Positions 1 through 60,924 of a stretch of DNA of 64,000 nucleotides are shown here, piece by piece (the stretch's first letter is position 1; each line of letters opens with the position of its first letter). The notes beneath the pieces are model-generated. The model was not told where the DNA came from, did no database searches, and saw only the letters and a list, made by a program, of their open reading frames with translations. The stretch comes from a phage. Location: NCBI GenBank assembly GCA_008273105.1, contig GCA_008273105.1_4080.1; one strand, written 5' to 3'. The position numbers were made by a program, and so were the translations under genes.

Positions 1-332
1 GCACCAATCGAAATAGTAGTATTTCTATCAGATAAATTAATATTAAAAACAGCATTGCCCGACAGTGGATTAATTAAAATATTATTAGAACTTAATACAT
101 TATATAACTTATTACTTGCACTATCATATAATGTTACCCATTCTGTTTCATGATTCTCGTTAGTAGCTTTAGCTTTTATCTTAACATTATTTTCAGAATC
201 AGTCATTCCAGTCCATCCAGATATAATAAAAGAACTGTTTTTATTAGTTCCGAATGATGCAATCACAGAATCACTAAGAGAACTATCTTCACCATCAATA
301 GATCCGAGTACTGACAATGTTAAAACCATCAT
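1..332 (-). CDS. partial CDS (3' end beyond window start); N/S/T-rich protein of unknown function
   Basis: Minus-strand frame open from a tandem ATG-ATG near 332-327 down to position 1 (MMVLTLSVLGSIDGEDSS...); not in ORF track because truncated; weak RBS, start uncertain. Confidence 0.3.
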   Translation of the reverse strand, partial: MMVLTLSVLGSIDGEDSSLSDSVIASFGTNKNSSFIISGWTGMTDSENNVKIKAKATNENHETEWVTLYDSASNKLYNVLSSNNILINPLSGNAVFNINLSDRNTTISIG

Positions 333-500
333 TTTTAATGTCTACACCAGTTGCACCTGAAAAATTATTTTGAAATTTAATAACTCCGGTAGTGTGGATA
401 TCTGTGAAAATTTGTTGTGCCATACTTAATCCTTGTGTTAATTTATATTGAGTATTTATTGAGTGTAATGGCATTTTTAGTACCATTACACTTGTATATG

Positions 501-2771
501 TTACTTATACCATTGCATTTCTCTAATATCAATGATAATTTTTGATGCTAACTTGATGTTTGGTTTTTTAGGAAGTACTGATTTCTTATATAGAACATCA
601 CGAATGTATTGTACTTTATCATCGAAATATTCTAAGACTTCTTCATACTTCCATTTACCATTACGAATATCCATCAACATTTGTGCATCTGGTCGTTTAA
701 CTTGAATAATTCCACTTTGTAATGCTTCTTCTGCACTATTCAAAAGTCGGATTGTGTGCATAGCATGTTTACAGTTTCCATGTAATGCAGTTTTACCATT
801 TCTACGAGTAACCAGTGTACCGTTCGGAACTGAAAAACAAACAGTTCTGTAGTTAGTTACTGGAATTTTTTCAAGATTTTGTTTCATGTTTATTTTTTCT
901 GATTTAGGTTTCATATTGATATGAACTTGATACATTTCAATATAACCAAAATTAGTTTCGTTTGTGTATGGTCCCCATTTCGATGTTTCATAACCGCACA
1001 GTAATGCTAGTTTTTGAACATCATCAGCTAATAATGAATTAGCAGTATAATATACATATGTGTCATCATGATTGACCAAATTACGTTTTGTACCATCACC
1101 TTGCAACAAACCTTTTAGCAGAAAATCCATTTTTCGTTTTGTTAAATCAAATGCCCAATTTGGAATTCTTTTATTATATGATCCATGCCCACAATCATTA
1201 TATAATGCTTCAGCCACTTCACGTGGAAATACAAATCTTGATTCATCATTTGATTGGTAATCTTTTCTTTCGTTAATGTATTCCTGAAATATCATTTGTC
1301 CAGATTGTTTGTATTTTGATAAAGCACAACGCATACCAGGACTGGCTTTTGATTGTGAAATGTATAATGATTTTACTTTTCCATCTCTAAAACTTATACT
1401 ACCATCTGAAAGAAACCATCCCATCAGTTGAAGATAAACTTTGATATCCATATAGTCAATTGGGCTTTTTTTATCTTTATATTCCTTTGTTATTGGAGAT
1501 AATGTATTCAAAATTTTATAAGTTTCTTTTAATTGTGCTGCTTCAACAAATTGCCATTCTGACATATCTTTTTGCTGATTACGTGCATAATTCTTAACAT
1601 ACATTCTGTGATTTGCAGTCACTAACGTATCTTGGTGATGACCAGTGAAATGGTAAAGATTTCCATTGTATAAATTATCAAAACGTTCTGTGTATTTTTG
1701 ATACTCTATTTTGTGATTTTTATCAAAAGTCGCTAATAGATCTTTATCAGTGATGTCGTCAAATAATTTCCAACCATCTTTAGTTAAGAATTCAGTATCA
1801 AAACTATAACAGTCGTATCCGTGTTGTGATTCTAAAATAGCACGTTTGGCATTACGATTTTCTTTCCATTTATGATAACTTTTCCTATTCTCACTATTTT
1901 CCTGATATTCTTTTTCGTTAAATTTGACAATTAGTTCTGGTTTAGTTTTCAACTCTTCAGTACTACGCTCTTTAGAAAAATAACGCAATGATCCATCACC
2001 GTTGATAGTGCTTTCATTCGGATTTTTAATAATCGCAAAAATGTTTTCTCCGTAATGAATTAGTTCATAACCATTATTAAAATTCAATAAATTGAAATCA
2101 CGATCAAGAATTTTTTCAGTAGTGTAGTTATGCACTAATCTTACAAAATGATATTGCTTTAATGGATTTTTCGAAACTAACTGCAATGACGTATCACGCA
2201 TATATTTTTCAAAATCAATCTTTTTAGCATTAAATGGATGTAAGTTGGATGTATCTAAACGTTCAACAAGATACTGTGGGAATGAATCATACATCCACGC
2301 AAGAACCTCATCGACAGGGTGTTCTTCTAAAATCTCATTTAATCGTTTTTCAGCAATACGCTCTTTATCCATCCAACCGTGATGATTTGTCATACGCTTA
2401 ATCTGATTATATGCATATCCAGTGTATGAAAATGCAATCTTGGAACTAAGAAGTTTTTGGTTAAATGAACGAAGATAGTCATAAATCTCAGTACTTTCTA
2501 CAATGTGTTCTGGATCGACCCATAGTGATTCCAATATATTAGGGTTGGCTTCAGTGTATAATTTTAAATACTGATTTAACTCATAGAATTTAGTATCTTC
2601 TTCATTTTTATCAGCTACTTCTTTGACCTTATAGAATGGCGTAAGAATAAATTCTTTATTAGCAAGAAAAATACCACGATAATCAGTATCACTTTCAGGT
2701 GTACTGGTTCCGTAGGCTTGTGACCCAGCCAAGTGTTTCACTATTGTTTGTTCAACATATTGGTTATTCAT
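501..2771 (-). CDS. Pol-beta-superfamily nucleotidyltransferase (RNA-repair-associated type) interrupted by an in-frame intein
   Basis: N-terminal LAGSQAYGTSTPESDTD matches the G-S-x-x-Y-G...S-D-x-D signature of minimal nucleotidyltransferases; residues 321-666 carry intein-like blocks; ATG at 2769-2771 verified by reverse-complement translation. Confidence 0.6.
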   Translation of the reverse strand: MNNQYVEQTIVKHLAGSQAYGTSTPESDTDYRGIFLANKEFILTPFYKVKEVADKNEEDTKFYELNQYLKLYTEANPNILESLWVDPEHIVESTEIYDYLRSFNQKLLSSKIAFSYTGYAYNQIKRMTNHHGWMDKERIAEKRLNEILEEHPVDEVLAWMYDSFPQYLVERLDTSNLHPFNAKKIDFEKYMRDTSLQLVSKNPLKQYHFVRLVHNYTTEKILDRDFNLLNFNNGYELIHYGENIFAIIKNPNESTINGDGSLRYFSKERSTEELKTKPELIVKFNEKEYQENSENRKSYHKWKENRNAKRAILESQHGYDCYSFDTEFLTKDGWKLFDDITDKDLLATFDKNHKIEYQKYTERFDNLYNGNLYHFTGHHQDTLVTANHRMYVKNYARNQQKDMSEWQFVEAAQLKETYKILNTLSPITKEYKDKKSPIDYMDIKVYLQLMGWFLSDGSISFRDGKVKSLYISQSKASPGMRCALSKYKQSGQMIFQEYINERKDYQSNDESRFVFPREVAEALYNDCGHGSYNKRIPNWAFDLTKRKMDFLLKGLLQGDGTKRNLVNHDDTYVYYTANSLLADDVQKLALLCGYETSKWGPYTNETNFGYIEMYQVHINMKPKSEKINMKQNLEKIPVTNYRTVCFSVPNGTLVTRRNGKTALHGNCKHAMHTIRLLNSAEEALQSGIIQVKRPDAQMLMDIRNGKWKYEEVLEYFDDKVQYIRDVLYKKSVLPKKPNIKLASKIIIDIREMQWYK
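774..1811 (-). mobile_element. intein with LAGLIDADG homing-endonuclease domain (about 346 aa), in frame within the nucleotidyltransferase CDS
   Basis: Begins with Cys (CYSFDTEFLTKDGW, block A-like), LVTANH resembles block B TxxH, two LAGLIDADG-like motifs (LMGWFLSDGSI and LLKGLLQGDGTK), ends ...ALHGN followed by Cys+1 (CKHAM); penultimate residue is Gly rather than the usual His. Confidence 0.5.
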
Positions 2772-3169
2772 AGATAAATTGTTAACTCCTTTAAGAAACC
2801 GTTATAATAACGATTAAAGTCATGTTCTAATGTTTTATAATCATCAAAACTAAAACCTAAATTGATAATTGTATCTTCTTGAAAGAAAGTTTCTTCATTC
2901 ATACATTCAATTGGTTCGTAATTAATTCCACCTTTAAAAACTTTTGTAAAAAATATTCCATCATTATTAATTTCAACATACATAAAATTATTTTCTGGGT
3001 CACGAGGGCAGACGATATTCAGTGAACTATTTCCACTCGTGTTGTACTCATAAGAAATTATATCAAAAGAATCAATACCATAACACTTAGATTTTTCTTT
3101 ATCACCAAATACTTTTCTATCTGTACTCATATTGCGTATAGTGCTGTAGATATCATCAACTGTAGTCAT
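2768..3169 (-). CDS. hypothetical protein (133 aa)
   Basis: Track ORF in same-strand dense array; start overlaps upstream stop; no recognisable motif. Confidence 0.45.
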   Translation of the reverse strand: MTTVDDIYSTIRNMSTDRKVFGDKEKSKCYGIDSFDIISYEYNTSGNSSLNIVCPRDPENNFMYVEINNDGIFFTKVFKGGINYEPIECMNEETFFQEDTIINLGFSFDDYKTLEHDFNRYYNGFLKELTIYL

Positions 3170-3171
3170 CG

Positions 3172-3681
3172 TTAACCACCATACTTTGACTTGTATGTTT
3201 CAAGTGATAAAGAAATACGATTTTGCTTTTTAATTCTTTCATCAATATCCTTTGAATTCTTCACACTTCGGTATACGTCAGCTAGTAAATTATAATCTTC
3301 TTTATTTGAGCTATGCTGTGCCCAACCTATCTCTGTTTTAATACGAACATTTGCTTTATTTGACGAGTAAAAGAAACTGAATCCATTGGACCCATCAAAA
3401 ATATCAAAAGTATCTACCCAATCACCATAAGGAAAGCTCATTGGAACTGACTCATGGTCTATTGTGATATCCGATAAATTTTTTGAACAGTACTTCGCAA
3501 AGTGATAAACGATTGGATCACATTTTGATAATTCGTATTTGTATTCAATGATAGTTTTTCTATTAGCATCATTGATAGCATATTCTTTTATCAATGGACT
3601 TTTTTTGATGATAAGAGTCCATAGAAACGATTCTAATCCTGTTTCATCAACTTTTTGTTTCTTTTTGAAAAATGAAATCAT
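3172..3681 (-). CDS. hypothetical protein, paralog family A member (169 aa)
   Basis: Shares N-terminal pattern (I/L)-x-K-S-P/Y-x-L-K ... D-x-N/D-R-K/R ... Y-x-L-S-K with the two adjacent ORFs. Confidence 0.5.
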   Translation of the reverse strand: MISFFKKKQKVDETGLESFLWTLIIKKSPLIKEYAINDANRKTIIEYKYELSKCDPIVYHFAKYCSKNLSDITIDHESVPMSFPYGDWVDTFDIFDGSNGFSFFYSSNKANVRIKTEIGWAQHSSNKEDYNLLADVYRSVKNSKDIDERIKKQNRISLSLETYKSKYGG

Positions 3682-4199
3682 TTATATAAACCCTTAATTT
3701 TCTGTCTATTATGTATATCATTTTGCTGGATTTTCAATTTAGTAAGGTTGTTTCTTACACCTTCAACACCACGCATTATTTGTAACATAATTAGTGATTC
3801 GTCATATGTTAGGACATTGCTATTATTATCGATATATACTTTCACTCCACTTTCAAGATAATCATTTTCTTTGGAGTTAAAGTTTCTAATAACAAACTTA
3901 ACGCCATTTGATGCATCACTGAAAACATATCGTTCCGCACCGTAGAATGTTTTTCCACGAAATAAACCGCCGTCTTCCCACTTCCAACGACTAGATTCAT
4001 AATCATTAACGTAATCAATGATTAAAGAAAGTAAAGGGTGTTTGCTCAATTTATATTTTGCATCTAACAGGATACGTCTATCATTATCTGTGGTGATAAT
4101 ATCCTTTAGTGAGTAGCTTTTAGATATAATTTTAAAGATAATTTCATGCCAAATTAAAGTACTGTTTTGTTTTCCAACTGATCCAAAAAACATATCCAT
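3678..4199 (-). CDS. hypothetical protein, paralog family A member (173 aa)
   Basis: IISKSYSLKDIITTDNDRRILLDAKYKLSK aligns with neighbours LCKSPSLKAEFKTDDDRKALIEMKYMLSK and IIKKSPLIKEYAINDANRKTIIEYKYELSK. Confidence 0.5.
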   Translation of the reverse strand: MDMFFGSVGKQNSTLIWHEIIFKIISKSYSLKDIITTDNDRRILLDAKYKLSKHPLLSLIIDYVNDYESSRWKWEDGGLFRGKTFYGAERYVFSDASNGVKFVIRNFNSKENDYLESGVKVYIDNNSNVLTYDESLIMLQIMRGVEGVRNNLTKLKIQQNDIHNRQKIKGLYK

Positions 4200-4205
4200 T
4201 CCTCA

Positions 4206-4772
4206 TTAGTATAAATCAGTAATGTCTTTGTATGCATTAATCTGTTTTTGTTGTAATGAAAGTTCATTGAGTTTAGTTACCATCTTATCTACACCAACAC
4301 GTGTATAGAAAATAATTAATGAATCTAAATTGCCTAGAGTAATTCTTGAACTGTAAGTTGAAAGTTTTCTTGCATAAACATAAATTTCTTCTTCACTTGG
4401 TAAACGTTTCTCAATCTGCAAGATTTCCTCACCATTCGGCTCATAATCGATTTCAAATTCAACTCCCATCACTGTGTCTTGAATGCGATCTGTATATGAA
4501 CCACCGTAAAAATACTCTCTTGGTTTGGCTCTCCAACGAGGACTAAATGGGTCAGATGCGTATTCTTTTACAAATTTGTAAAAGGACATTTTACTGAGCA
4601 TATACTTCATCTCAATTAGTGCTTTGCGGTCATCATCAGTTTTAAACTCTGCTTTGAGCGATGGACTTTTACACAGTAACTTAACTAAATTGTTGTACAT
4701 CTTTAATGTACGTTGTTCTTTCATTTCTTTGATTTTGTGACGTTTTGGTGGCGGTAATAAAGATTTGACCAT
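4206..4772 (-). CDS. hypothetical protein, paralog family A member (188 aa)
   Basis: Same conserved N-terminal block as 3172..3681 and 3678..4199; first gene after the tail-fibre terminator. Confidence 0.5.
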   Translation of the reverse strand: MVKSLLPPPKRHKIKEMKEQRTLKMYNNLVKLLCKSPSLKAEFKTDDDRKALIEMKYMLSKMSFYKFVKEYASDPFSPRWRAKPREYFYGGSYTDRIQDTVMGVEFEIDYEPNGEEILQIEKRLPSEEEIYVYARKLSTYSSRITLGNLDSLIIFYTRVGVDKMVTKLNELSLQQKQINAYKDITDLY

Positions 4773-4804
4773 AATTTCCTCCTATTTTTATTCAATTATA
4801 CACA

Positions 4805-4835
4805 TAAAAGAAAAGCCCGTCAATAGACGAGCTTT
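4805..4835 (-). terminator. rho-independent terminator after tail-fibre-like gene
   Basis: Minus-strand hairpin (agcccgtc/gacgagct, one mismatch) followed by T-run, immediately 3' of the stop at 4840. Confidence 0.45.
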
Positions 4836-4839
4836 AAAT

Positions 4840-7569
4840 TTATTTCCAACGTGTACCTGGACCTGATGGTACACCAGTACTGGCAGGTATCGCTGAACCA
4901 CGTTTCGTTGTACTTGGACGATATGTCAAAAAACGAGTTACTTTTTCTGTATCAATTGAAGTTATTCCTGAAGTTCCAGTAACTATCTTACCAATGTAAG
5001 TGCTAGTTAAAGATTCATCAATTGTTTCAGTACTAATAACATATGACGCTTTCTTAGTATTCCTGTTCATTTGTATATACAAATAGAACGTAGTATTAGC
5101 TGGATTACTTTTTACAGTACTTAAATCAACACTTTGTATAGGTAGTCTGTCGAAAATTCCACCTAAAAACACCGGAACTTCACGTGTAAAGTACACTGAG
5201 AATCCTTGTGCAACGTCTTGTGATACTACCACAATCTTTTCTTTAACGCTACCATTTCCACTAATTAAACCATCCATTTCAGCAGATGTTGTACCAAAAA
5301 CGCTGAATACAGATTTGGTTTGATAGTCAGAATCTTGAAAATTGTAATATCCAAAACCAACACCAGGAATAACACCATGTTGATATGCTGCACCAAGTTG
5401 GATGTAACTAGATGATAAAAAACGATTTGATGTTATGACACCATCTACTGTTTTAGCTATCATCATCTTAAATTGTGCATTACCTGGTTGTGAAAATTGA
5501 TGAACGGCATCAACACCAATGTAACCAAATCCTGAATATTTTGCAACAGTTAGACCAGTACAACGTTTCATATATGCTTCAGTAATAATTCCTGTAACAG
5601 AACTCAGTGTTTCATATCTAGTACTCACCAATGTAGCTGAAGTTATGTTAGTTCCAGATAATACAACATCAACTTCGGCATAGATTGCATAACCTTGGTT
5701 ATTGTTAAGATTATATGCTGAAACTACTGCGATGGATTTAGAAAAAGTATTATCAGGTACATAATATAATACAATTTGTCCAGATAGTGTACCAACAATG
5801 CCAGAGTTTCCTATATTAGCAAAAATATCTTGTTTTAATGATTCTAATACCGTTGGTTCTATTGTATATGTTTCATCAAATTCTAAAGTATCTGGATTTA
5901 ATAATCCACCACTTGTTTTATATACACCTTCAATGAATGATGTTCCATAGCATCTAACACTACCATCGGTATCAACAAGAGAAATCATAGCAGTGTATGT
6001 AAAATCATCGCCTATTTGTTTACGATTAGATTGTGGTGCAAAACCATTTAATGTAGTATTATTTTGAACTGAGTTATATTGATATGTTGGTTGTGAACCT
6101 ATTTCAGAAAAAACAGTATTATTATAATTATATGTTACATCATCATACGTACCAGAACATGCTAATAATATTTTTCTATTATCGATGAAACGTACACCTA
6201 AAAGGTTTGCACCAACAGCACTACCAAAAACTGGTAAAACGTTTGCATTTATAACGTTACTTGCGGTTCTAGTACTGGCAACCCATGAATCAAACGGTGT
6301 ACCACTAACCTTATATCGTTGTAGACCATAAAATTCAGTTGAACTCCATCTAAATTTAGATGCAAATACCAAACCATCTTTAGTTTGACATAAACCACCT
6401 GCGTTTCCTAATACACCAGCAGCAGTTGTCCCTGTGAAGTTGACCATATTAATTTCAAATGGGTTAGAAACTTGAAATCCATTATTATATGAAACAGTTG
6501 CAGGTGCACGAGCACTACCATCTAGTGACATAGATTTTGAGTTTATATTATAAACAAAACTTATTCCAGTACCATAAACTGTTGAAATATACAAAGGTGT
6601 AACCATTCGATGTGTTGGATATAAAGTTACACGTATTTTTGATAAATCAGGACTAACGTTGGCTTGAATGTTAAAGTCTGTATAGTCTGAAAATTCTACA
6701 CGTGATACTGGTGATGTAACTTCGAATAATGAATCCGAGCTAGTACCAACACTATATAATTTATCGAACACTCTTATGTTATTAGATGCAGAATAACTTG
6801 TGTTTCGAACAGTTTGACCTGATAACCCAGTAACTTTTGTTAATGATGCCATTGAGCTTGCTTTCACATCACTTAGCTCTACTGTATAAATTGAAAGTGC
6901 TAATCCTAAATTAGAAACACTTTTATCTTTACACCAAATATAAACCTTTGTCCCAACAATATGTGTATATATTGGCATATCATTACCAAAAGAAGTACTT
7001 GGCACTTTAGCATGAATATGTGATATTTCGTTAAATGTGCCATTGGTTATAGTAAAAATATAATTATCTTCAGTACTTAAACATCCAAGCATCTCATAAC
7101 CATTAGAGCCAATAAAATACTTAATATTTTCAGTACTACTCATAATTGAAGGTTTATACATTGAATTGGTTGAAATAACACTTTCTTGTGAAATCATAGT
7201 TATATTTCGGAGATCTCGTATAAATGAATAATAAAAACCTTTAGTACTACCATTGGTTCCGCTACGCAGAACAACGGCGGTTCCATCATCTTCAATAATT
7301 GTTGGCTGAACTACTTGGTCACTTGACATAGGTGTAGCACCTTCATACGATCCACTTACGTTTAATGGTAAGTAATCCATTTCTCCTACACGTGATATAG
7401 GCAACATATCTAAAATACTTTGAACTTCTGAACGCTTATATATTGGATATTGAACAATTCCAGTATTGGCATTCGGTGAGGTTCCATTAAAAGTACGCAT
7501 AGCGTACCTTTGTCCAATTGCCAAGTTCCCAAGGATCTCGGCACTTCCTATAATTCGTTTTGATGACAT
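4840..7569 (-). CDS. tail-fibre-like large structural protein (about 909 aa from adjusted start)
   Basis: N/S/T/G-rich; N-terminal LPISRVGEMDYLPLNVSGSYEG and LRSGTNGS blocks shared with the 8185..10881 protein; conserved C-terminal tail ending GTRWK; track ORF extends to 7659 but ATG at 7569 has an AAGGA RBS and avoids overlap with the upstream gene. Confidence 0.6.
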   Translation of the reverse strand: MSSKRIIGSAEILGNLAIGQRYAMRTFNGTSPNANTGIVQYPIYKRSEVQSILDMLPISRVGEMDYLPLNVSGSYEGATPMSSDQVVQPTIIEDDGTAVVLRSGTNGSTKGFYYSFIRDLRNITMISQESVISTNSMYKPSIMSSTENIKYFIGSNGYEMLGCLSTEDNYIFTITNGTFNEISHIHAKVPSTSFGNDMPIYTHIVGTKVYIWCKDKSVSNLGLALSIYTVELSDVKASSMASLTKVTGLSGQTVRNTSYSASNNIRVFDKLYSVGTSSDSLFEVTSPVSRVEFSDYTDFNIQANVSPDLSKIRVTLYPTHRMVTPLYISTVYGTGISFVYNINSKSMSLDGSARAPATVSYNNGFQVSNPFEINMVNFTGTTAAGVLGNAGGLCQTKDGLVFASKFRWSSTEFYGLQRYKVSGTPFDSWVASTRTASNVINANVLPVFGSAVGANLLGVRFIDNRKILLACSGTYDDVTYNYNNTVFSEIGSQPTYQYNSVQNNTTLNGFAPQSNRKQIGDDFTYTAMISLVDTDGSVRCYGTSFIEGVYKTSGGLLNPDTLEFDETYTIEPTVLESLKQDIFANIGNSGIVGTLSGQIVLYYVPDNTFSKSIAVVSAYNLNNNQGYAIYAEVDVVLSGTNITSATLVSTRYETLSSVTGIITEAYMKRCTGLTVAKYSGFGYIGVDAVHQFSQPGNAQFKMMIAKTVDGVITSNRFLSSSYIQLGAAYQHGVIPGVGFGYYNFQDSDYQTKSVFSVFGTTSAEMDGLISGNGSVKEKIVVVSQDVAQGFSVYFTREVPVFLGGIFDRLPIQSVDLSTVKSNPANTTFYLYIQMNRNTKKASYVISTETIDESLTSTYIGKIVTGTSGITSIDTEKVTRFLTYRPSTTKRGSAIPASTGVPSGPGTRWK

Positions 7570-7585
7570 CTTTATTTTCCTTAAT

Positions 7586-8173
7586 TTACCAACCAATTGT
7601 ACCAGTTTCTGATGGTTTTCCAGTACTGACTGGGAATGAAGAACCTTTTTGTGTAACACTAGGTCTATATGTACTAAATCTGGATACTTTATTAATGTTT
7701 ATATTTGTAATACCACTTGTACCAACGGTCAGTGTTCCAATAAACATTATAATTTCAGATTCTTGTATTTGTGTTGGTGATATTTTATAAATTGGTTCAC
7801 CGAGAACTAACGTTGCATATACGTATTGTGTTTGTGTTCCAGATGAAACAGTTGAAGCAAAAATAGAAACTGCTGGAAATTTATAAAGATAACCACCAAT
7901 AAATGATGGTATCTGTCTATTAAATGTAAGACTATAGCCTGATGAAGTAATATTTAGACTAGCGTCATCATACAATTCTCCGTATTGTGTAAGTGGTAAT
8001 CCATTGACAATAAAGTTAACTTCATCTTTGGTAATAGAGGGGAATGTACATTCCCCATTTGAATTTGTTGGGTAATAAGTCATATTATTACCTAATACAC
8101 CAAGACCAGTACTTTTACCCTGAACTGTAACTTGTTGCATTGCCTTAAGGTCTGCTCTTATTTTATATGCCAT
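7586..8173 (-). CDS. small tail-fibre-associated protein sharing the C-terminal module (195 aa)
   Basis: C-terminus SGITNININKVSRFSTYRPSVTQKGSSFPVSTGKPSETGTIGW parallels the C-termini of both flanking large proteins. Confidence 0.5.
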   Translation of the reverse strand: MAYKIRADLKAMQQVTVQGKSTGLGVLGNNMTYYPTNSNGECTFPSITKDEVNFIVNGLPLTQYGELYDDASLNITSSGYSLTFNRQIPSFIGGYLYKFPAVSIFASTVSSGTQTQYVYATLVLGEPIYKISPTQIQESEIIMFIGTLTVGTSGITNININKVSRFSTYRPSVTQKGSSFPVSTGKPSETGTIGW

Positions 8174-11740: not shown

Positions 11741-13546
11741 TTATTTGTGCTGAATACGCTCGCAACACTCTTGTTGCTTGCCTTTATTGAAGCCACGCGA
11801 AGAAGGATTACCCAAGTACCCAGAAACACGACGAATCACTGAGATTGTCTTCTCATTACGATTATCACATACAGGACAGTGGAAACCATGTTTATCGACA
11901 CTGAACTCACCCTGGAAGCCACATTCATAACAATGGTCAACTGGTTGGTTAATACCAAAATATGGTATCTTAGTGTACGCATAGTTAACTAATGTTTCAA
12001 GTGCTTGAATGTTGTTTGCTAAGTTTGGAGATTCAACATAACTGATGTTTCCACCGTTACTTAGGTAAGCAAACCCTTCTTCATAACTCCATTTATCAAA
12101 TGGAGAACTTTCTACCCATACTGGTTGATGGAAGGAATTTGTGATGTAATCACGTTTTAGTACTGAAGGATATTTTGCTTCAATGCAACGTGCAAATTTA
12201 TAACAAAGTGACTCTGCTGGCGTTCCATATAGACTAAAAGCTATATTACTCTCTTTTTTGAACTCATCGCATTTTACTTTCATATAATTCAGTACTGACA
12301 TACAAAACTCCTTACTGATAGAACCAGTGAGGATTTCTGAACATTCAACAAGTCCAACATAACCAATACTAATACTAGCATAACCATTGTAAAATAGCTT
12401 GTCAATGGTTTCTTCTGCACCTAAACGTGCTAATGCACCTTCCATGAACAAAATTGGATTTTGCTTTGCTTTAGTGCCTTTTAAACGCTCTACGCGGTTC
12501 ATCTGAGCACGATATGCAATATTCATATGCTCGTCTATCTTATCAAAAAACTCTCCGTCAGAAGTACTCTCAAGAGCAATTAGAGGTAAATTGATAGAAA
12601 CCACACCTAAATTGAAACGACCGTTGTATTGTTCATTTCCATTTGAATCTTCCCATTTTCCTAAGAATGAACGACAGCCCATCGGTGTTACAGCAGTACT
12701 ACTACTTCCAGTCACTTTGTGATTTAATGGTACTGAAACAAAGTCAGGGTAGATTCGTTTTGATGCACAACGCATAGCTAACTGTTTAAGGTCATAATTA
12801 CTATCGTTGGTATTCATGTTTATACCATCTTGTAAAAAGAAAATTACTTTAGGAAACACTGGAGTAATCTTATCTTTACCTAAACCATTCTCATGGACTT
12901 TTAAGTACTGTTCAGTGATTAATTTGCCAAATTTAGAAGTGTTAAGACCTAAACTAAGAGAAATAAATGCAGCTTGACCATTAGTACTAATCATTGAATT
13001 AGTTTGGTAAAGTAATGTTTGGCAGCCATCATACACTTCTTTACGTAGTTCTTCTTCAATGAATTCATCACTTAGATTATATTTCTTTTGTTTTTCTAAC
13101 AGCTTATCCCATGACTTTTGAACGTAAGGTTCTAATCCGACATCAATGTGAGCCAAAGATTGACCACCATACTGGGAACTGGCAACAGCTTGGACAATTT
13201 GTGTCAGTACTGTGCAAGCTACACTGAAACTTTTTGGTTCTTCAATTTTAGCACAACCAATAGTGAAGCCGTTTTTAAGCATATCAGGATAGTTAACCAA
13301 GCAACAATTGGTCAATGGGCTAATATAGTAATCTAAATCATGAATATGACCATATCCATCATTATGCCATTGCATTAACTCGGTGGGAATAACATCTTGT
13401 GAATAATGCTTAGATAGAATACCTGCTAGTAAATCTCTATGTGTATTGACGCATTTTGCATCTTTATTAGCGTTTTCATTAGTAAGATCAGTATTACTCT
13501 GATTTAGGAAATTTGTTACATCGGTATATAATTTATCTAATTGCAT
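11741..13546 (-). CDS. nrdD: anaerobic ribonucleoside-triphosphate reductase (glycyl-radical enzyme)
   Basis: C-terminal Zn-ribbon CYECG...CPVCDN and glycyl-radical motif RRVSGYLG; NENANKD and NCCLVNYPDMLKNGF blocks as in T4 NrdD; track ORF runs to 13609 but internal ATG at 13546 has an AGGA RBS and gives a T4-like N-terminal length. Confidence 0.9.
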   Translation of the reverse strand: MQLDKLYTDVTNFLNQSNTDLTNENANKDAKCVNTHRDLLAGILSKHYSQDVIPTELMQWHNDGYGHIHDLDYYISPLTNCCLVNYPDMLKNGFTIGCAKIEEPKSFSVACTVLTQIVQAVASSQYGGQSLAHIDVGLEPYVQKSWDKLLEKQKKYNLSDEFIEEELRKEVYDGCQTLLYQTNSMISTNGQAAFISLSLGLNTSKFGKLITEQYLKVHENGLGKDKITPVFPKVIFFLQDGINMNTNDSNYDLKQLAMRCASKRIYPDFVSVPLNHKVTGSSSTAVTPMGCRSFLGKWEDSNGNEQYNGRFNLGVVSINLPLIALESTSDGEFFDKIDEHMNIAYRAQMNRVERLKGTKAKQNPILFMEGALARLGAEETIDKLFYNGYASISIGYVGLVECSEILTGSISKEFCMSVLNYMKVKCDEFKKESNIAFSLYGTPAESLCYKFARCIEAKYPSVLKRDYITNSFHQPVWVESSPFDKWSYEEGFAYLSNGGNISYVESPNLANNIQALETLVNYAYTKIPYFGINQPVDHCYECGFQGEFSVDKHGFHCPVCDNRNEKTISVIRRVSGYLGNPSSRGFNKGKQQECCERIQHK

Positions 13547-13683
13547 TGTACATTCCTTGTATTTTGAAATCATCTGGGGGTGAAGATATTTAATATCACC
13601 AGACAACATTATAGCGTCAGAACAGGTTATTTCTCTTGACCTATATCAAGGAAAAGTCACATTGCTTTTTATTTGCACAAATA

Positions 13684-19226: not shown

Positions 19227-20666
19227 TTACATATTTTCTTCAGCAAATTCTGCAAGTGGTGAACGAACAACACCTTCTAGTTCGATGACACGACAACCTG
19301 CCCAATCTTTAAACTTCTCAGTTACATATGTCAAACCACTGTTAACAGGACTAATAAACTTACTGTCAATCTGACTCAAGTTACCCATAATTACTACTTT
19401 ACAGTTTAATCCTGCTCGTGTCAAGATTGTTTTAGCTTGTGCAGGTGTAATGTTTTGGAATTCATCAACTACTAGAATAGTGTTGGTGAATGAACGTCCA
19501 CGTACAAAGTTTAGTGCTTTAAATTGAATAACATTACGTTTCATAATCTCTTCAATACTACCTTGAGGGTTAGCATCATCTTTATGAAGAAACTCTAACG
19601 CGTCAATTGCGGCTCCACAGAATGGAATCACTTTTTCTGCTTCTGAACCTGGCAAGAAACCAATATCTTCAAACTGTGAGTCTTGAGTTTTAGAGAAGAT
19701 GATTCGGTCGTATTTACGTTTTTCCAGTACTAATTCTAATGCAGTAGCAATCGTAATTAGTGTTTTACCAGTACCAGCAGAACCTAGCAGTACTGTTAGA
19801 TGTACATCAGGATCGAGAATACTGTTGATGGCGAGTGCTTGTTGGATATTCTTTGCTTTAATATCCCATACTTTAGCACGTAAAGCTACTGATTGTCCAA
19901 TATCTTGGAATACCAAAATATCTTCTGGTGTTAGTGTTCCATCATCTTCCTCAATTGCTGATTGACCTTCGTACACAAATAATACGTCTGCATCATCATA
20001 TAGATAATCACCGATGCATAGATTTTGTGGAAGCAAATGTTCAATCAAGCTTTTAGAAATGTAATGATACAAACGACGACCAACTTGTTCGGATTGAATA
20101 TTAGTATTGGTTAAGTTGCTATATACTTCCCAAAAATTAATTTCCAAATGGTGTTGACCAATGTGAATCAAATCACTATCACCAATAACAATATCATGGC
20201 GATAATCTTGTACCTCGACACCATAACTTAGTGCTTTGATACGCATGTTGATATCACGAGTTACCAGTACTGATTCTGTTGCTAAAGCTACCAGAATGAT
20301 TTTATCATCAGGTACTGTGCTTTTGAGAAGGGTTTGAACTTTCTCTTCTGAACCTTTAGTACGAATTAGTGCTTCAGCTTCTTCGTTTGTAATAACAAAC
20401 AATTTGCTATCAGGATTCATATTGGTATGAACATCAGCAATATTAACACCAGTACTACTAATCTCATCATGTGATGCATCTGCAATAATTGCTTCAATGT
20501 TACGAATAGCAACACGAGCATCGCGTGAAACATCTACATTACGACTCTTAATTGAATCCAATTCTTCCAGTACTGTAAATGGTAGAATGATTGCAGCACC
20601 ATCAAAAGCAATAGATGCATTAGGGTCAGATAGTAGTACGTTTGTGTCAATTGTATATTTTTTCAT
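19227..20666 (-). CDS. phoH: PhoH-like ATPase with N-terminal PIN domain
   Basis: Walker A LLGSAGTGKTLITIA; PIN-like N-terminus (MKKYTIDTNVLLSDPNA...LEELD); 479 aa. Confidence 0.8.
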   Translation of the reverse strand: MKKYTIDTNVLLSDPNASIAFDGAAIILPFTVLEELDSIKSRNVDVSRDARVAIRNIEAIIADASHDEISSTGVNIADVHTNMNPDSKLFVITNEEAEALIRTKGSEEKVQTLLKSTVPDDKIILVALATESVLVTRDINMRIKALSYGVEVQDYRHDIVIGDSDLIHIGQHHLEINFWEVYSNLTNTNIQSEQVGRRLYHYISKSLIEHLLPQNLCIGDYLYDDADVLFVYEGQSAIEEDDGTLTPEDILVFQDIGQSVALRAKVWDIKAKNIQQALAINSILDPDVHLTVLLGSAGTGKTLITIATALELVLEKRKYDRIIFSKTQDSQFEDIGFLPGSEAEKVIPFCGAAIDALEFLHKDDANPQGSIEEIMKRNVIQFKALNFVRGRSFTNTILVVDEFQNITPAQAKTILTRAGLNCKVVIMGNLSQIDSKFISPVNSGLTYVTEKFKDWAGCRVIELEGVVRSPLAEFAEENM

Positions 20667-30069: not shown

Positions 30070-31488
30070 TTAGCCAAGTGATTCAATGATACTGTTTGAG
30101 AACACCTCAACAGCACTATCACGAATTTCTAAAATACGAGTATAGTCGTCACAAGTGTTTTTGTCAAATCTAAATTCAATAAACACTGGTAAGAACAGTG
30201 ATGGCTCACCAGTACGCTTGTCGAATACAATGTCATTACACTCAACTGTAACCACTTTACCAATAAGTTCTTGCATTCTTTCCCAAATGGTTTTAAATGT
30301 CCATTCAGCATCTTTCTCTTTGATACCAGTACCCACATTAACTTTCAATGAACCACAAGCACTTTCCAGTTGTAAAGAACCTAGGCTTCCTTTACGTTTA
30401 CCTTCACCTTCATTGAAACCAACAATACGCAAGTCTAGTTGCATTTTCAATTTCATTTTCAACTGCTTCGGAGAAGTGTGAGATTTCCAGATACCATCTT
30501 CACATTTCAGTACTGAACCCTCTTCACCTTCGTTCATTAGTTCACTATTGTACTCAAATGCTTCTTTGATGTTTAGAACTTTACGGAATCCAACCATACG
30601 AACAAAATCACTATTGAGTTCGTTAATTGCATCTACTAAGATCTCGCGACGTTCTTTACGTTTTACATCCCATACACCTTCACAAAATGCATCATATGGA
30701 ACAACATCCCATAGAACGAATACAGTACGCATTGCTTCATTCTGACTGATGCTATCTTTACCAGCTTTCTGAATTATACCGTTGCCAGTAGTGCGTGGGA
30801 GAATGGTTTCCCCATCATTGTCCAGTACTACACCTTCCCCCATAAAGACCACACCACTACTAAAACGTTCATCTTTACTTTGGATGATGTGAGCAAGACC
30901 TGCCATCTCACCATCACGACAACCCAGGAAGTCGTATAGTTTACCATTACGGGATGTAGAAGTTAATGAACCATTAATAACAACGTGGTTCAAGTACTGA
31001 CCATCCATTTTCACTTCTGATATAGCGTAACCATAATCTTTGAAGTTGATGTTCTTTGCAGTCTTTTTGTCAATCAAAGAACAACGCATATATGGTTCGT
31101 CTTTAATAAAGCCTTTACCAAATACATCATTGCAGTTCTTTTCTTGAATACCACAATCAAGGTTTTTAGTAAGCATTTTACGGAGAACTTCCTGATCATC
31201 TTCAGATACAGAACCCAGTACTGAAGCAATGAAATCACGCCCCGCATTTCCTGTCACATCACGCTTGTAAATGCATTCTAGCTTATCAATTGCTTCATCT
31301 AACGTCATATGTTGATATACGTCATCAGCGGCAGGGAGCTTCTTATAGCCACTAACGATAGAAGGGTCTAGAGTATATTTCAGTACTTTTTGTAAAGTTA
31401 CATTATCTTTATTTTGTTCAAGAATAGCTTTTTTGCCTAGTGTACTGCTAGTATTTTTAATGCTTTCAAGAATTGCTAAAATGCTCAT
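30070..31488 (-). CDS. ATP-dependent DNA ligase (T4 gp30-like)
   Basis: 472 aa; N-terminus MSILAILESIKNTSSTLGKKAILEQNKDN closely parallels T4 DNA ligase; adenylation motif I EVKMDGQ (KxDG). Confidence 0.85.
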   Translation of the reverse strand: MSILAILESIKNTSSTLGKKAILEQNKDNVTLQKVLKYTLDPSIVSGYKKLPAADDVYQHMTLDEAIDKLECIYKRDVTGNAGRDFIASVLGSVSEDDQEVLRKMLTKNLDCGIQEKNCNDVFGKGFIKDEPYMRCSLIDKKTAKNINFKDYGYAISEVKMDGQYLNHVVINGSLTSTSRNGKLYDFLGCRDGEMAGLAHIIQSKDERFSSGVVFMGEGVVLDNDGETILPRTTGNGIIQKAGKDSISQNEAMRTVFVLWDVVPYDAFCEGVWDVKRKERREILVDAINELNSDFVRMVGFRKVLNIKEAFEYNSELMNEGEEGSVLKCEDGIWKSHTSPKQLKMKLKMQLDLRIVGFNEGEGKRKGSLGSLQLESACGSLKVNVGTGIKEKDAEWTFKTIWERMQELIGKVVTVECNDIVFDKRTGEPSLFLPVFIEFRFDKNTCDDYTRILEIRDSAVEVFSNSIIESLG

Positions 31489-52936: not shown

Positions 52937-53069
52937 TTAGTCGAGAATAAATCTCGACTTGTGTTTTACTTTACCATTCTTCATTGCTTTTTTACGGTCC
53001 ACATGTGTCTGAGGCTTGTTAAACTCATTCATGTGTTTCTGTACGAAATTGTTTACTTTCTTAGCCATA
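52937..53069 (-). CDS. small basic protein (about 43 aa) with terminator hairpin in its 3' end
   Basis: Hand-translated MAKKVNNFVQKHMNEFNKPQTHVDRKKAMKNGKVKHKSRFILD; hairpin agtcgagatttattctcgact plus T-run overlaps the last codons. Confidence 0.3.
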
Positions 53070-53070
53070 C

Positions 53071-53544: not shown

Positions 53545-53586
53545 GATCTATCCTTGATCTTCTAATGCACTCCATGTGCGTTTTTA

Positions 53587-55852: not shown

Positions 55853-55861
55853 ATTTCATTC

Positions 55862-57586: not shown

Positions 57587-57647
57587 AAAATTCTCCTTTA
57601 GGACAATGTATCATACAAAAATACCAGAGTCAACCCCTGGTACGAAT

Positions 57648-60859: not shown

Positions 60860-60886
60860 ATCTTCTCCTGTACTCTATTAAAAGCG

Positions 60887-60915: not shown

Positions 60916-60924
60916 GACGTAAAC

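What the first reader, a model, noticed from the sequence alone, without database searches (positions are those of the whole stretch)
774..1811. Probable LAGLIDADG intein inside a Pol-beta-type nucleotidyltransferase gene
The 756-aa ORF has a roughly 320-aa N-terminal region with the minimal-nucleotidyltransferase signature (GSQAYGTSTPESDTD) and a roughly 90-aa C-terminal region, separated by about 346 aa that begin with Cys (CYSFDTEF...), contain two LAGLIDADG-like dodecapeptides (LMGWFLSDGSI, LLKGLLQGDGTK) and end in Asn followed by Cys (ALHGN then CKHAM). That is the architecture of a self-splicing intein with a homing endonuclease. The penultimate residue is Gly rather than His, which is unusual and could affect splicing. 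Inteins in this host protein family would be an uncommon insertion site.
Basis: partly seen in the sequence, partly recalled or inferred. Interest (0 to 1): 0.6.

Follow-up and report, generated by a model that had tools for sequence, protein, structure and literature searches.

The report
Mobile intein in a jumbo-phage nucleotidyltransferase
The 346-codon insert is very likely a real self-splicing intein with a homing endonuclease, recently gained by one lineage of large E. coli phages at a site already known to carry inteins in mycobacteriophages, so it is a clean but ordinary example of a known kind.

Summary
Observation confirmed exactly. The ORF at 501-2771 (-) encodes 756 aa, and aa 321-666 (window 774-1811) are a precise 1038-nt in-frame insertion.

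- **Insertion:** The window comes from an Asteriusvirus, the 121Q/PBECO4 group of E. coli jumbo phages. At least 22 close relatives lack exactly this segment. Phage E9.1 encodes a 410-aa protein 100% identical to N-extein plus C-extein, joined GYD|CKHAM.
- **Fold:** An AlphaFold model of the insert (pLDDT 94.8) matches endonuclease-bearing inteins (TliVMA, PI-SceI).
- **Catalytic residues:** Cys1, block B T-x-x-H, terminal Asn, Cys+1 and both LAGLIDADG acidic residues are present.
- **Mobility:** Phage TH47 has the only other copy in the phage collection, at the same site. That copy is far closer to the window's intein (dS 0.56) than the host genes are to each other (dS >2). It is under purifying selection (omega 0.09).
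- **Host site is known:** The mycobacteriophage cluster C1 "NT" intein (Kelley 2016) is a 34%-identical homologue at the same site. So are inteins in Pectobacterium phage DU_PP_I, Lak megaphages and about 20 metagenomic proteins.
- **Penultimate Gly is a clade trait (48/49):** A distantly related mycobacteriophage intein with this Gly splices fully. The AceL NrdHF structure explains it through a block B Arg, which this intein also has.

Verdict: new member of a known kind. Splicing and homing are inferred, not tested.

The parts
501..2771 (-). Precursor ORF of 756 aa: RlaP-family nucleotidyltransferase interrupted by the intein. The stop codon is at 501-503.
   Evidence: ORF list. Pfam RlaP, E 4e-15. 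phrog_388 nucleotidyltransferase, E 9e-78. The exact protein is encoded on 16 public contigs.
1812..2771 (-). N-extein, aa 1-320. It ends ...RNAKRAILESQHGYD and contains the Pol-beta signature GSQAYGTSTPESDTD at window 2682-2726.
   Evidence: 100% identical to aa 1-320 of the intein-free E9.1 protein. Asp-1 is invariant in 121 homologues.
774..1811 (-). Intein, 346 aa (protein aa 321-666): a HINT splicing domain split by a LAGLIDADG homing endonuclease domain.
   Evidence: Exactly this 1038-nt segment is absent from 22 or more close relatives. AF2 pLDDT is 94.8 and Foldseek matches TliVMA and PI-SceI inteins. There are 46 homologous inteins.
1773..1811 (-). Block A: Cys1-YSFDTEFLTKDG, the N-terminal splice nucleophile.
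   Evidence: Cys1 is present in 45/45 aligned inteins. T6, T10 and G13 are invariant.
1602..1622 (-). Block B: V64-T65-A-N-H68-R69-M70. Thr is B:7, His B:10, Arg B:11 and Met B:12.
   Evidence: His is present in 48/48 and Thr/Ser in 46/48. Arg/Lys at B:11 is present in 23 of 26 NTase-hosted inteins. This stretch aligns with vSpNHRM of the AceL NrdHF intein 6zgq.
897..1484 (-). LAGLIDADG homing endonuclease domain, approximately intein residues 110-305. Motif 1 LMGWFLSDGSI is at 1395-1427 (Asp136). Motif 2 LLKGLLQGDGTK is at 1086-1121 (Asp239).
   Evidence: Pfam LAGLIDADG_3. The acidic residue of motif 1 is D/E in 49/49 and that of motif 2 is D in 49/50. The model matches I-DmoI and I-SceI. omega is 0.127 against TH47.
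792..848 (-). Block F and the following loop: R-T-V-C325-F-S-V-P-N-G-T-L-V-T-R336-R-N-G-K. Cys325 occupies position F:4.
   Evidence: Cys is present in 43/49 overall and 26/26 NTase-hosted inteins. R336 is present in 48/49. The C-terminal profile aligns vvCFtV with IYDLTV of the Mja KlbA intein 2jmz.
771..791 (-). Block G and the C-terminal splice junction: T-A-L-H344-G345-N346 | Cys+1.
   Evidence: Asn is present in 48/49, penultimate Gly in 48/49, and Cys/Ser/Thr at +1 in 49/49.
501..773 (-). C-extein, aa 667-756, starting CKHAMHTIRLL. This is the start of a long conserved helix.
   Evidence: 100% identical to E9.1 aa 321-410. K, H, A, M, H, R, L and L are each kept in at least 112 of 121 homologues. 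In the AF2 model of the spliced enzyme the helix spans residues 321-340.

Best explanation
Window 774-1811 (-) encodes a canonical class 1 intein carrying an in-frame LAGLIDADG homing endonuclease. It sits between Asp320 and Cys321 (numbering of the spliced enzyme) of a jumbo-phage RlaP-family Pol-beta nucleotidyltransferase, inside that family's most conserved motif, RNxxRxxLExxxGYD|[T/C]KHAMHxxRLL.

**Inferred splicing mechanism**
1. The 756-aa precursor is translated.
2. Cys1 makes an N-S acyl shift at the Asp-1/Cys1 bond, helped by Thr65 and His68 of block B.
3. Cys+1 takes over the N-extein by transesterification.
4. Asn346 cyclises to release the intein.
5. An S-N shift leaves the 410-aa enzyme, identical to that of intein-free sister phages.

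The usual penultimate His is replaced by Gly throughout this intein clade. By analogy with the solved AceL NrdHF intein, the block B Arg69 is inferred to polarise the C-terminal scissile bond instead.

**Inferred homing mechanism**
During co-infection the endonuclease domain cuts the intein-free allele (...CACGGATACGAT|TGTAAACATGCT...). Repair then copies the intein into it.

**Shown versus inferred**
- Shown: the precise insertion, the fold, residue conservation, purifying selection, and the discordance between intein and extein divergence.
- Inferred: splicing chemistry, endonuclease activity and homing.
For: **Precise insertion**
- At least 22 Asteriusvirus genomes at 97-99.8% identity align in two pieces and lack 13% of the 8-kb query.
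- The E9.1 protein equals N-extein plus C-extein at 410/410 residues.
- Six intein-free alleles read ...TACGAT|TGTAAA... across the site.

**Fold**
- AF2 gives pLDDT 94.8 and pTM 0.92.
- Foldseek matches TliVMA intein 7qsu (E 2e-15), PI-SceI 1vde (5e-12), PhoVMA and PI-TkoII. I-DmoI, I-SceI and Hint domains follow.

**Catalytic positions across 45-50 homologous inteins**

| Position | Conservation |
|---|---|
| Cys1 | 45/45 |
| B:10 His | 48/48 |
| G:7 Asn | 48/49 |
| +1 Cys/Ser/Thr | 49/49 |
| Both LAGLIDADG acidic residues | retained |

**Selection against the TH47 copy**
- omega is 0.09 overall. By domain it is 0.044 (HINT-N), 0.127 (endonuclease) and 0.042 (HINT-C).
- Binomial p values run from 1e-5 to 3e-29.

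**Mobility**
- The intein is 88.4% identical at nucleotide level to TH47's copy, with dS 0.56. The flanking exteins are 78.6% and 70.6% identical, with dS >2 (Fisher p 8e-10).
- The window's extein differs from the intein-free E9.1 allele by only 3 synonymous bases in 1233.
- The intein is the only large indel across about 58 kb of otherwise colinear genome.

**Same site in distant phages**
Mycobacteriophage Ava3 gp3 reads HGWD|CYLGDTEFLT...AMHGN|T. DU_PP_I and Lak-B9 carry it at the same site, as do P0002-P0022 and P0140.

**Precedent for Gly at G:6**
- The RDF intein splices fully, and its G316H mutant is slower (PMC5050341).
- In AceL NrdHF, G145H is inactive and Arg69 contacts the C-scissile carbonyl (PMC7891396).

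**Not an assembly artefact**
The exact precursor is encoded on 16 contigs from at least 5 sequencing runs.
Against: - No experiment here shows splicing or DNA cleavage.
- The intein lacks both histidines that usually assist Asn cyclisation, at G:6 and in the second half of block F. The compensating role of Arg69 is by analogy only. B:11 is Arg or Lys in 34 of 48 clade members, not all.
- Standard intein-splicing HMMs in Pfam and NCBIfam do not detect it.
- The closest solved relative of the N-terminal splicing half, AceL NrdHF, is a class 3 intein. The F:4 position is Cys in all 26 NTase-hosted members, so a contribution of Cys325 to catalysis cannot be excluded.
- Only one comparison pair (window against TH47) underlies the dN/dS figures.
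Confidence: 0.87

Rival explanations
1. The intein splices by a class 3-like or relay route. Cys325 (block F:4) would be the obligate branch-point nucleophile, or a necessary thioester relay between Cys1 and Cys+1, as in the atypical 'MCT' class 3 AceL NrdHF intein. The Cys1/Cys325/Cys+1 triad could also make splicing redox-sensitive.
For: - The best and only significant PDB sequence match of the splicing domain is the class 3 AceL NrdHF intein 6zgq (E 0.003, improving to 6e-4 with a mini-intein query). The shared motif is NHRM, with His68, Arg69 and Met70 at identical numbering. Foldseek gives rmsd 2.5-3.0 A at 25-26% identity.
- Like AceL, this intein has Met at B:12, Cys at F:4, Gly at G:6 and no block F His (PMC7891396).
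- Cys F:4 is invariant in 26/26 NTase-hosted inteins that are only 31-50% identical overall.
Against: - Cys1 is invariant in 45/45 members. Class 3 inteins are defined by lacking an N-terminal nucleophile, and AceL begins with Ala.
- B:12 is not Trp and G:5 is His or Gln, not Thr.
- In the wider clade F:4 is Asp (3), Ser (2) or Gly (1). An obligate thiol nucleophile could not be replaced this way.
- Cys is the second most common F:4 residue among inteins in general (PMC4031507).
- The C-terminal half shows no detectable sequence match to AceL.
Confidence: 0.08
2. The insert is a decaying, splicing-incompetent or endonuclease-dead intein. The nucleotidyltransferase would then be knocked out in this phage lineage, tolerated because the gene is accessory.
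For: - The penultimate His is absent.
- No standard intein-splicing HMM hit was found.
- RlaP is an accessory RNA-repair gene rather than a core replication gene (PMC7824862).
- One clade member (P0014) has a damaged second LAGLIDADG motif, so decay does occur in this family.
Against: - The ORF is intact.
- Selection is strongly purifying on all three parts of the intein (omega 0.04 to 0.13).
- Every catalytic position matches the clade consensus.
- The extein has no non-synonymous change against intein-free E9.1.
- An identical protein occurs in at least 5 independent runs.
- The intein is younger than the divergence of the host genes, implying recent homing.
- Penultimate Gly is compatible with efficient splicing in two tested inteins (PMC5050341, PMC7891396).
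Confidence: 0.04
3. The central 346 aa are a native accessory domain of this enzyme lineage, not a mobile insertion.
For: None was found. The only point in favour is that the precursor ORF is continuous.
Against: - 119 of the 120 best extein homologues lack the segment, and the one exception (P0140) carries a homologous intein at the same junction.
- Sister phages at 99.8% nucleotide identity lack it precisely.
- Homologous segments sit in unrelated proteins, including ThyX, an RNA polymerase subunit, PolA, methyltransferase, phosphoesterase and terminase.
Confidence: 0.01

Closest known systems
Mycobacteriophage cluster C1 'NT' (nucleotidyltransferase gp3) intein, e.g. Ava3, Alice, Gizmo and Pleione (Kelley et al. 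2016, mBio, PMC5050341)
   Same: - Same host enzyme family (RlaP/IPR018775).
- Homologous insertion point: ...HG[YW]D | C-Y-x-x-DTEFLT ... HGN | [C/T]K.
- Full-length homologous LAGLIDADG intein: 33.6% identity over all 346 aa, E 1e-47.
- Same HGN ending with penultimate Gly, and same VCF block F.
   Different: - Only about 34% identical.
- The host phage is an E. coli jumbo myovirus (Asteriusvirus, about 30% GC) rather than an actinobacteriophage (about 65% GC).
- The +1 residue is Cys instead of Thr.
- The host enzyme carries about 170 extra residues between the NTase core and the insertion motif.
- In Asteriusvirus the intein is rare: the window lineage plus TH47, against dozens of intein-free genomes.
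Escherichia virus TH47 (MT446416, unannotated) nucleotidyltransferase intein
   Same: Same genus, same gene, same site and same length (346 aa). It is 89.6% identical at protein level and 88.4% at nucleotide level, with the same GAC codon before the intein.
   Different: It sits in a diverged host allele (exteins 78.6% and 70.6% nucleotide identity, dS >2), whereas the inteins differ by dS 0.56. The record carries no annotation and I found no publication describing it.
AceL NrdHF class 3 split intein (PDB 6zgq; Hoffmann et al. 2020, PMC7891396)
   Same: - It is the only solved structure with significant sequence similarity to the splicing domain.
- It shares His68-Arg69-Met70 in block B, Cys at F:4, Gly at G:6 and Asn at G:7, and also lacks the block F His.
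- It gives a structural rationale for the penultimate Gly: His there clashes with Arg69, and Arg69 contacts the C-scissile carbonyl.
   Different: - AceL starts with Ala, so it has no N-terminal nucleophile and is experimentally class 3.
- It has Thr at G:5.
- It is naturally split, with a free-standing GIY-YIG gene, and sits in NrdHF.
- Similarity is detectable only in the N-terminal half.
Mycobacteriophage RDF (Bethlehem gp51 / Switzer gp53 metallophosphoesterase) intein (PMC5050341)
   Same: It is a class 1 LAGLIDADG intein with Cys1 and a penultimate Gly, and was shown experimentally to splice to completion. The Switzer gp53 copy is a full-length but distant tblastn hit to the window intein (21.8% identity).
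   Different: The host protein and insertion site are different, and the sequence similarity is very distant.
Archetypal endonuclease-bearing inteins: PI-SceI (Sce VMA1), TliVMA/PhoVMA and PI-TkoII
   Same: They share the overall architecture of a HINT domain interrupted by a two-motif LAGLIDADG endonuclease. They are the best Foldseek matches (E 2e-15 to 4e-10, TM 0.55-0.62).
   Different: Sequence identity is only 10-12%. They have the canonical penultimate His and mostly Asp at F:4. PI-SceI has an extra DNA-recognition region.

Membership tests
Intein (HINT-domain protein-splicing element), class 1 | Precise in-frame insertion relative to intein-free homologues of the host protein | tested here: met
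   The E9.1 orthologue equals N-extein plus C-extein at 410/410 residues, with one 346-column gap. At least 22 genomes lack the 1038 nt. 119 of 120 extein homologues are uninterrupted.
Intein (HINT-domain protein-splicing element), class 1 | N-terminal Cys or Ser nucleophile (A:1) | tested here: met
   Cys321 of the precursor is intein Cys1. It is invariant in 45/45 aligned relatives.
Intein (HINT-domain protein-splicing element), class 1 | Block B Thr-x-x-His | tested here: met
   T65-A-N-H68 is present. His is kept in 48/48 and Thr/Ser in 46/48.
Intein (HINT-domain protein-splicing element), class 1 | C-terminal Asn (G:7) followed by Cys/Ser/Thr (+1) | tested here: met
   N346 | C667. Asn is kept in 48/49 and the +1 residue is Cys, Ser or Thr in 49/49.
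Intein (HINT-domain protein-splicing element), class 1 | Penultimate His (G:6). This is common but not obligatory. | tested here: not met
   The residue is Gly345, and Gly is present in 48/49 clade members. Inteins with Gly here are known to splice (PMC5050341, PMC7891396), so this feature does not exclude membership.
Intein (HINT-domain protein-splicing element), class 1 | HINT fold of the splicing domain | tested here: met
   The AF2 model has pLDDT 94.8. Foldseek matches intein, Hedgehog and BIL Hint domains as well as whole endonuclease-bearing inteins.
Intein (HINT-domain protein-splicing element), class 1 | Demonstrated protein splicing, with ligated exteins and free intein | not testable with these tools
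   This needs expression followed by Western blot or mass spectrometry.
LAGLIDADG homing endonuclease (two-motif, monomeric) | Two LAGLIDADG motifs, each with the catalytic acidic residue before the final Gly | tested here: met
   Motif 1 is LMGWFLS-D136-G and motif 2 is LKGLLQG-D239-G. The acidic residue is D/E in 49/49 and D in 49/50. Pfam LAGLIDADG_3 scores E 4.5e-6.
LAGLIDADG homing endonuclease (two-motif, monomeric) | Alpha-beta-beta-alpha-beta-beta-alpha pseudo-dimeric fold | tested here: met
   The model's secondary structure shows two repeats of helix plus beta-hairpins. Foldseek matches I-DmoI and I-SceI at E 2.5e-5 to 1e-4.
LAGLIDADG homing endonuclease (two-motif, monomeric) | Site-specific cleavage of the intein-free allele, and homing | not testable with these tools
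   The support is indirect only. Intein dS is 0.56 against extein dS >2 between the window and TH47. Distribution among near-identical genomes is sporadic.
Class 3 intein | Absence of an N-terminal Cys/Ser nucleophile | tested here: not met
   Cys1 is present and invariant.
Class 3 intein | WCT triplet: Trp at B:12, Cys at F:4 and Thr at G:5 | tested here: not met
   B:12 is Met, F:4 is Cys325 and G:5 is His344, so only the Cys matches. The atypical class 3 AceL NrdHF intein has M-C-T.
Class 3 intein | Block F branched thioester intermediate | not testable with these tools
   This needs mutant analysis (C1A, C325A, C+1A) and thiol-lability assays.
RlaP (PF10127) Pol-beta nucleotidyltransferase (host protein) | Pfam model above the gathering score, with the GS...D.D Pol-beta motif | tested here: met
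   PF10127 scores 56.5 bits on the precursor and 60.3 bits on the intein-free E9.1 orthologue, against a cut-off of 23. G16, S17, D28 and D30 are invariant. Only weak structural matches were found, to kanamycin NTase, HalB and MNT NTases.

The most novel reading that the evidence does not exclude
This Cys1-bearing intein clade may be the sister or ancestral stock of the atypical 'MCT' class 3 AceL NrdHF intein. The clade signature is Met at B:12, Cys at F:4, Gly at G:6 and an RRNGK loop.

Under this reading its invariant block F Cys325 is catalytically required, either as a thioester relay or as a redox switch with Cys1 and Cys+1. If so, class 3 chemistry arose more than once. Maturation of the phage RNA-repair nucleotidyltransferase would then be conditional on the redox state of the infected cell.
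Probability: 0.1. Interest if true: 0.6.

Novelty: new member of a known kind. Interest (0 to 1): 0.35.

Why it matters
**A convenient experimental system.** The phage infects E. coli. Sister phages differ by 3 synonymous bases in the host gene and carry the empty site. The endonuclease target can be read directly from them. Inteins in coliphages with such a matched pair of filled and empty alleles are uncommon. This would allow direct measurement of homing, co-conversion and splicing kinetics in a tractable host.

**One intein allele across very distant hosts.** The same site in RlaP nucleotidyltransferases is occupied in phages of Actinobacteria, Enterobacteria and Bacteroidetes, and in contigs binned to archaea and candidate phyla. 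This supports the view that phages shuttle inteins.

**An annotation gap.** Standard intein-splicing HMMs miss this clade. Records therefore call the gene simply 'nucleotidyltransferase', 'HNH endonuclease' or 'hypothetical protein'.

None of this changes what is known about inteins in principle.

Tried and rejected
**Searches that found little or nothing**
- Pfam and NCBIfam scans for intein-splicing or Hint models on the precursor and on the insert. Only LAGLIDADG_3 hit, plus weak hits to intein-containing GyrA, DnaB and PolII families.
- PDB sequence search with the spliced enzyme: no hit. Foldseek of its AF2 model gave only weak Pol-beta NTase matches, E 0.014 or worse. The structural role of the GYD|CKHAMH motif therefore stays unknown.
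- PDB search with a profile of the C-terminal splicing blocks, hoping to align AceL NrdHF. It hit Mja KlbA block F instead. That fixed the Cys at position F:4 but did not link the C-terminal half to AceL.
- blastn of the intein DNA against the phage collection found only TH47.
- Full-text literature search for 'intein' plus 'Asteriusvirus' found no description of this intein. The jumbo-phage review mentions RlaP and inteins separately. The Certrevirus paper lists other inteins, not the nucleotidyltransferase one.
- Tori & Perler 2011, on class 3 inteins that have N-terminal nucleophiles, is not held in the library.
- There are no tRNAs in the window.

**A co-conversion tract was looked for**
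Only the single base next to the insertion differs: GAT in 6/6 empty alleles and GAC in both filled alleles. The next differences from E9.1 lie 132 and 138 nt away.

**Readings rejected**
- Native domain.
- Assembly artefact.
- Intron: the ORF is continuous.
- BIL or Hedgehog-type domain: the insert has a terminal Asn and a +1 nucleophile.


Full report
**1. Checking the observation**

The ORF at window 501-2771 on the minus strand encodes 756 aa.

| Feature | Protein position | Window |
|---|---|---|
| GSQAYGTSTPESDTD | aa 16-30 | 2682-2726 |
| CYSFDTEF... starts | aa 321 | 1811 |
| LMGWFLSDGSI | aa 449-459 | 1395-1427 |
| LLKGLLQGDGTK | aa 551-562 | 1086-1121 |
| ALHGN ends | aa 666 | 774 |
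| CKHAM starts | aa 667 | 773 |

The proposed intein is exactly 346 aa, or 1038 nt. Pfam places an RlaP nucleotidyltransferase domain (PF10127, 'RNA repair pathway DNA polymerase beta family') at aa 12-131 (E 4e-15). It places a LAGLIDADG_3 domain at aa 551-610. GC content is flat, about 0.29-0.36, across the region, so composition does not mark the insert.

**2. What genome this is, and the decisive comparison**

Megablast of window 1-8000 against the phage collection hits 36 records of Escherichia and Salmonella jumbo phages of the Asteriusvirus group, including 121Q, PBECO4, E9.1, SP27 and G17. Twenty-two of these records cover at least 80% of the query. The best 18 listed each align at 97-99.8% identity in two pieces covering 87% of the query. 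The missing 13% is the insert.

In phage E9.1 the orthologous gene is annotated 'nucleotidyltransferase' and is 1233 nt, or 410 aa. Its product is identical at 410 of 410 positions to aa 1-320 plus 667-756 of the window protein, with one clean 346-column gap. The uninterrupted junction reads ...SQHGYD|CKHAMH.... Six intein-free alleles all read ...GGATACGAT|TGTAAACAT... at the DNA level.

The rest of the window (8001-58000) is colinear in a single piece with the same relatives at 97.7-98.3% identity. The intein is therefore the only large indel seen. The exact 756-aa precursor is encoded on 16 contigs assembled from at least five independent public sequencing runs. It is not an assembly artefact.

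**3. Is the insert an intein?**

*Fold.* An AlphaFold2 model of the 346 aa, built on an alignment of 31 homologues, is confident (mean pLDDT 94.8, pTM 0.92). It shows beta-rich ends surrounding two helix-plus-hairpin repeats.

Foldseek against the PDB gives these matches:
- TliVMA intein, E 2e-15
- PI-SceI, E 5e-12
- PhoVMA and PI-TkoII
- the free-standing LAGLIDADG enzymes I-DmoI and I-SceI
- Hint domains: Hedgehog, AceL NrdHF, BIL, Prp8 and DnaE inteins

*Homologues.* A search of 5.8 billion proteins with the insert returns 46 homologues.
- About 20, at 35-52% identity over the full length, sit in RlaP-type proteins at the same junction: G[YF]D|CY..DTEFLT ... RRNGK..[HQ]GN|[CST]KHAMHLVRLL.
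- More distant ones, at 23-31% identity, sit in ThyX, an RNA polymerase subunit, PolA, a methyltransferase and other proteins.

*Catalytic positions across 45-50 aligned members.*

| Position | Residue and conservation |
|---|---|
| A:1 | Cys 45/45 |
| B:7 | Thr/Ser 46/48 |
| B:10 | His 48/48 |
| G:7 | Asn 48/49 |
| +1 | Cys/Ser/Thr 49/49 |
| LAGLIDADG motif 1 acidic residue | D/E 49/49 |
| LAGLIDADG motif 2 acidic residue | D 49/50 |

The window intein matches the consensus at every one of these positions.

**4. The insertion site**

I aligned the intein-free E9.1 protein with its 120 best homologues, 121 sequences in all. The junction lies in the most conserved stretch of the enzyme:
- R306, N307, R310, E314, D320 and K322 are invariant or nearly so.
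- H323, A324, M325, H326, R329, L330 and L331 are each kept in at least 112 of 121 sequences.
- The residue after the junction is Thr (64), Cys (45) or Ser (4), so a +1 nucleophile is native to the family.

An AF2 model of the spliced enzyme (pLDDT 91.9) puts the junction at the N-terminal cap of a long helix spanning residues 321-340. No solved structure is close. The best Foldseek matches are kanamycin nucleotidyltransferase, Hailong HalB and MNT antitoxins, at E 0.014 or worse. This supports 'Pol-beta-type nucleotidyltransferase' and nothing more specific.

Published comparative work predicts that RlaP enzymes restore nucleotides at damaged RNA ends alongside RNA ligases (PMC7824862). The window does encode a T4-type polynucleotide kinase/phosphatase (37800-38732) and an Rnl1-type RNA ligase (39829-40971).

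**5. Evidence that it is, or recently was, mobile**

Only one other record in the phage collection has similar intein DNA. That is the unannotated phage TH47, at the same site of its orthologue.

Comparison of the window with TH47:

| Segment | Nucleotide identity | dS |
|---|---|---|
| Intein | 88.4% | 0.56 |
| N-extein | 78.6% | 2.1 (near saturation) |
| C-extein | 70.6% | saturated, not calculable |

- The proportion of synonymous sites that differ is significantly lower in the intein than in the N-extein (Fisher p 8e-10).
- The intein is therefore younger than the split between the two host alleles. This is what horizontal homing predicts.
- Conversely, the window's extein differs from the empty E9.1 allele by only three synonymous bases in 1233.

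Selection on the intein is purifying in all parts. omega is 0.044 for the N-terminal HINT part, 0.127 for the endonuclease and 0.042 for the C-terminal HINT part. Binomial p values run from 1e-5 to 3e-29.

The only trace of flank conversion is the base next to the insert. The Asp-1 codon is GAT in all six empty alleles and GAC in both filled alleles.

**6. The penultimate Gly**

It is a clade character: Gly occupies G:6 in 48 of 49 members, and the one exception is Ser.

Two experimental precedents exist.
- The mycobacteriophage RDF intein has a penultimate Gly and splices to completion. Its G316H mutant accumulates precursor (PMC5050341). An RDF-type intein (Switzer gp53) is a distant full-length hit to the window intein, at 21.8% identity.
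- In the AceL NrdHF intein, G145H abolishes splicing because His would clash with Arg69 (block B:11). Arg69 sits 2.5 A from the C-scissile carbonyl, and R69A slows splicing (PMC7891396).

AceL NrdHF is the only PDB entry with significant sequence similarity to the window's splicing domain (E 0.003, improving to 6e-4). The aligned motif ...NHRM... puts His68, Arg69 and Met70 at identical positions in both. Arg or Lys occupies B:11 in 23 of 26 NTase-hosted members.

The most likely reading is that Arg69 substitutes for the missing His. This is an inference by analogy.

**7. Which mechanistic class?**

By signature the intein is class 1: Cys1 is invariant, and block B is T-x-x-H.

One feature deserves mention. 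The residue aligned with the usual block F:4 Asp is Cys325. A profile of the C-terminal blocks aligns vvCFtV with IYDLTV of the Mja KlbA intein. This Cys is invariant in all 26 NTase-hosted members and present in 43 of 49 overall. Together with Met at B:12 and Gly at G:6, this resembles the M-C-T signature of the class 3 AceL intein.

Four points argue against a class 3 route:
- Cys1 never varies.
- G:5 is His or Gln, not Thr.
- F:4 is Asp, Ser or Gly in six clade members.
- Cys is the second most common F:4 residue in inteins generally (PMC4031507).

I give class 1 about 0.87 and a class 3-like or relay role for Cys325 about 0.08.

**8. Comparison with what is known**

Inteins in this enzyme family are not new.
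- Kelley et al. 2016 list 23 'NT' inteins in cluster C1 mycobacteriophages. Their Table S2 gives Ava3 gp3 at 1049-2053. Those are exactly the coordinates of my tblastn hit: 33.6% identity, full length, E 1e-47.
- The junctions correspond: HGWD|CYLGDTEFLT...AMHGN|TKTGYHALRL.
- The 2025 actinobacteriophage survey again lists nucleotidyltransferase (IPR018775) as a known host.
- I also found the same allele in Pectobacterium phage DU_PP_I and Prevotella megaphage Lak-B9, in P0140, and in metagenomic proteins attributed to Promethearchaeota, Nanoarchaeota and Glassbacteria bins.

I found no publication describing it in Asteriusvirus.

**9. Verdict**

The main interpretation, a LAGLIDADG intein in a Pol-beta nucleotidyltransferase, is well supported. 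The suggestions that the site is unusual and that the Gly may be a defect are not.

This is a new member of a known kind. It is a recently mobile, apparently fully functional class 1 intein of the 'RlaP/NT' allele, now in an E. coli jumbo phage.

Its practical value is as a tractable system for homing and splicing studies with matched filled and empty alleles. It is also a reminder that standard intein HMMs miss this clade.

Splicing, endonuclease activity and homing remain untested.

Noticed in passing
window 37800-38732 (-) and 39829-40971 (-): The window encodes a T4-type polynucleotide kinase/phosphatase (PF25109, E 1.8e-43, plus AAA_33) and an Rnl1-type RNA ligase (PF09511 and PF20819). 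These are the RNA-repair partners with which RlaP nucleotidyltransferases are predicted to act. They lie about 35 kb from the intein-bearing gene (PMC7824862).
   Followed up: partly
window 1-8000 versus 8001-58000: The first 8 kb is 99.8% identical to phage E9.1 outside the intein. The next 50 kb is only about 98% identical, and the best-matching relative changes (E9.1, then CRJP21 and 121Q). This suggests a recombination mosaic around the intein-bearing segment.
   Followed up: no
window 1812-1814 (Asp-1 codon): The codon just upstream of the intein is GAC in both intein-bearing alleles (window and TH47) and GAT in all six intein-free alleles examined. This could be a one-base co-conversion mark or a change in the endonuclease target.
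   Followed up: partly
window 774-1811; also L003 and other mycobacteriophage records: Curated intein-splicing HMMs in Pfam and NCBIfam do not detect this intein clade. Only the LAGLIDADG_3 model does. Public records annotate intein-bearing orthologues variously as 'nucleotidyltransferase', 'HNH endonuclease' or 'hypothetical protein'.
   Followed up: partly
window 3172-4772 (-): Three adjacent small ORFs (169, 173 and 188 aa) are paralogues of each other (phrog_7868 and phrog_18641 cross-hits). Their function is unknown. They lie just upstream of the nucleotidyltransferase gene.
   Followed up: no
window 53000-63050 (-): A long run of back-to-back ORFs of about 160-200 aa occupies this stretch. 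Megablast reports three places per record for the 33001-58000 query, which hints at a tandem paralogue array.
   Followed up: no
window 19227-20666 (-), 11741-13609 (-), 30070-31488 (-): Other identifiable genes are a PIN-PhoH fusion protein, the anaerobic ribonucleotide reductase NrdD and an ATP-dependent DNA ligase. None is interrupted, although PhoH, RNR and ligase-type genes host related inteins in other phages.
   Followed up: no
P0012, P0025, P0008 (metagenomic homologues): Homologous inteins at the same RlaP site occur on contigs binned as Promethearchaeota (557 kb contig), Nanoarchaeota and Candidatus Glassbacteria. This is an unusually wide apparent host range for one intein allele. 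Whether those contigs are cellular or viral was not checked.
   Followed up: no
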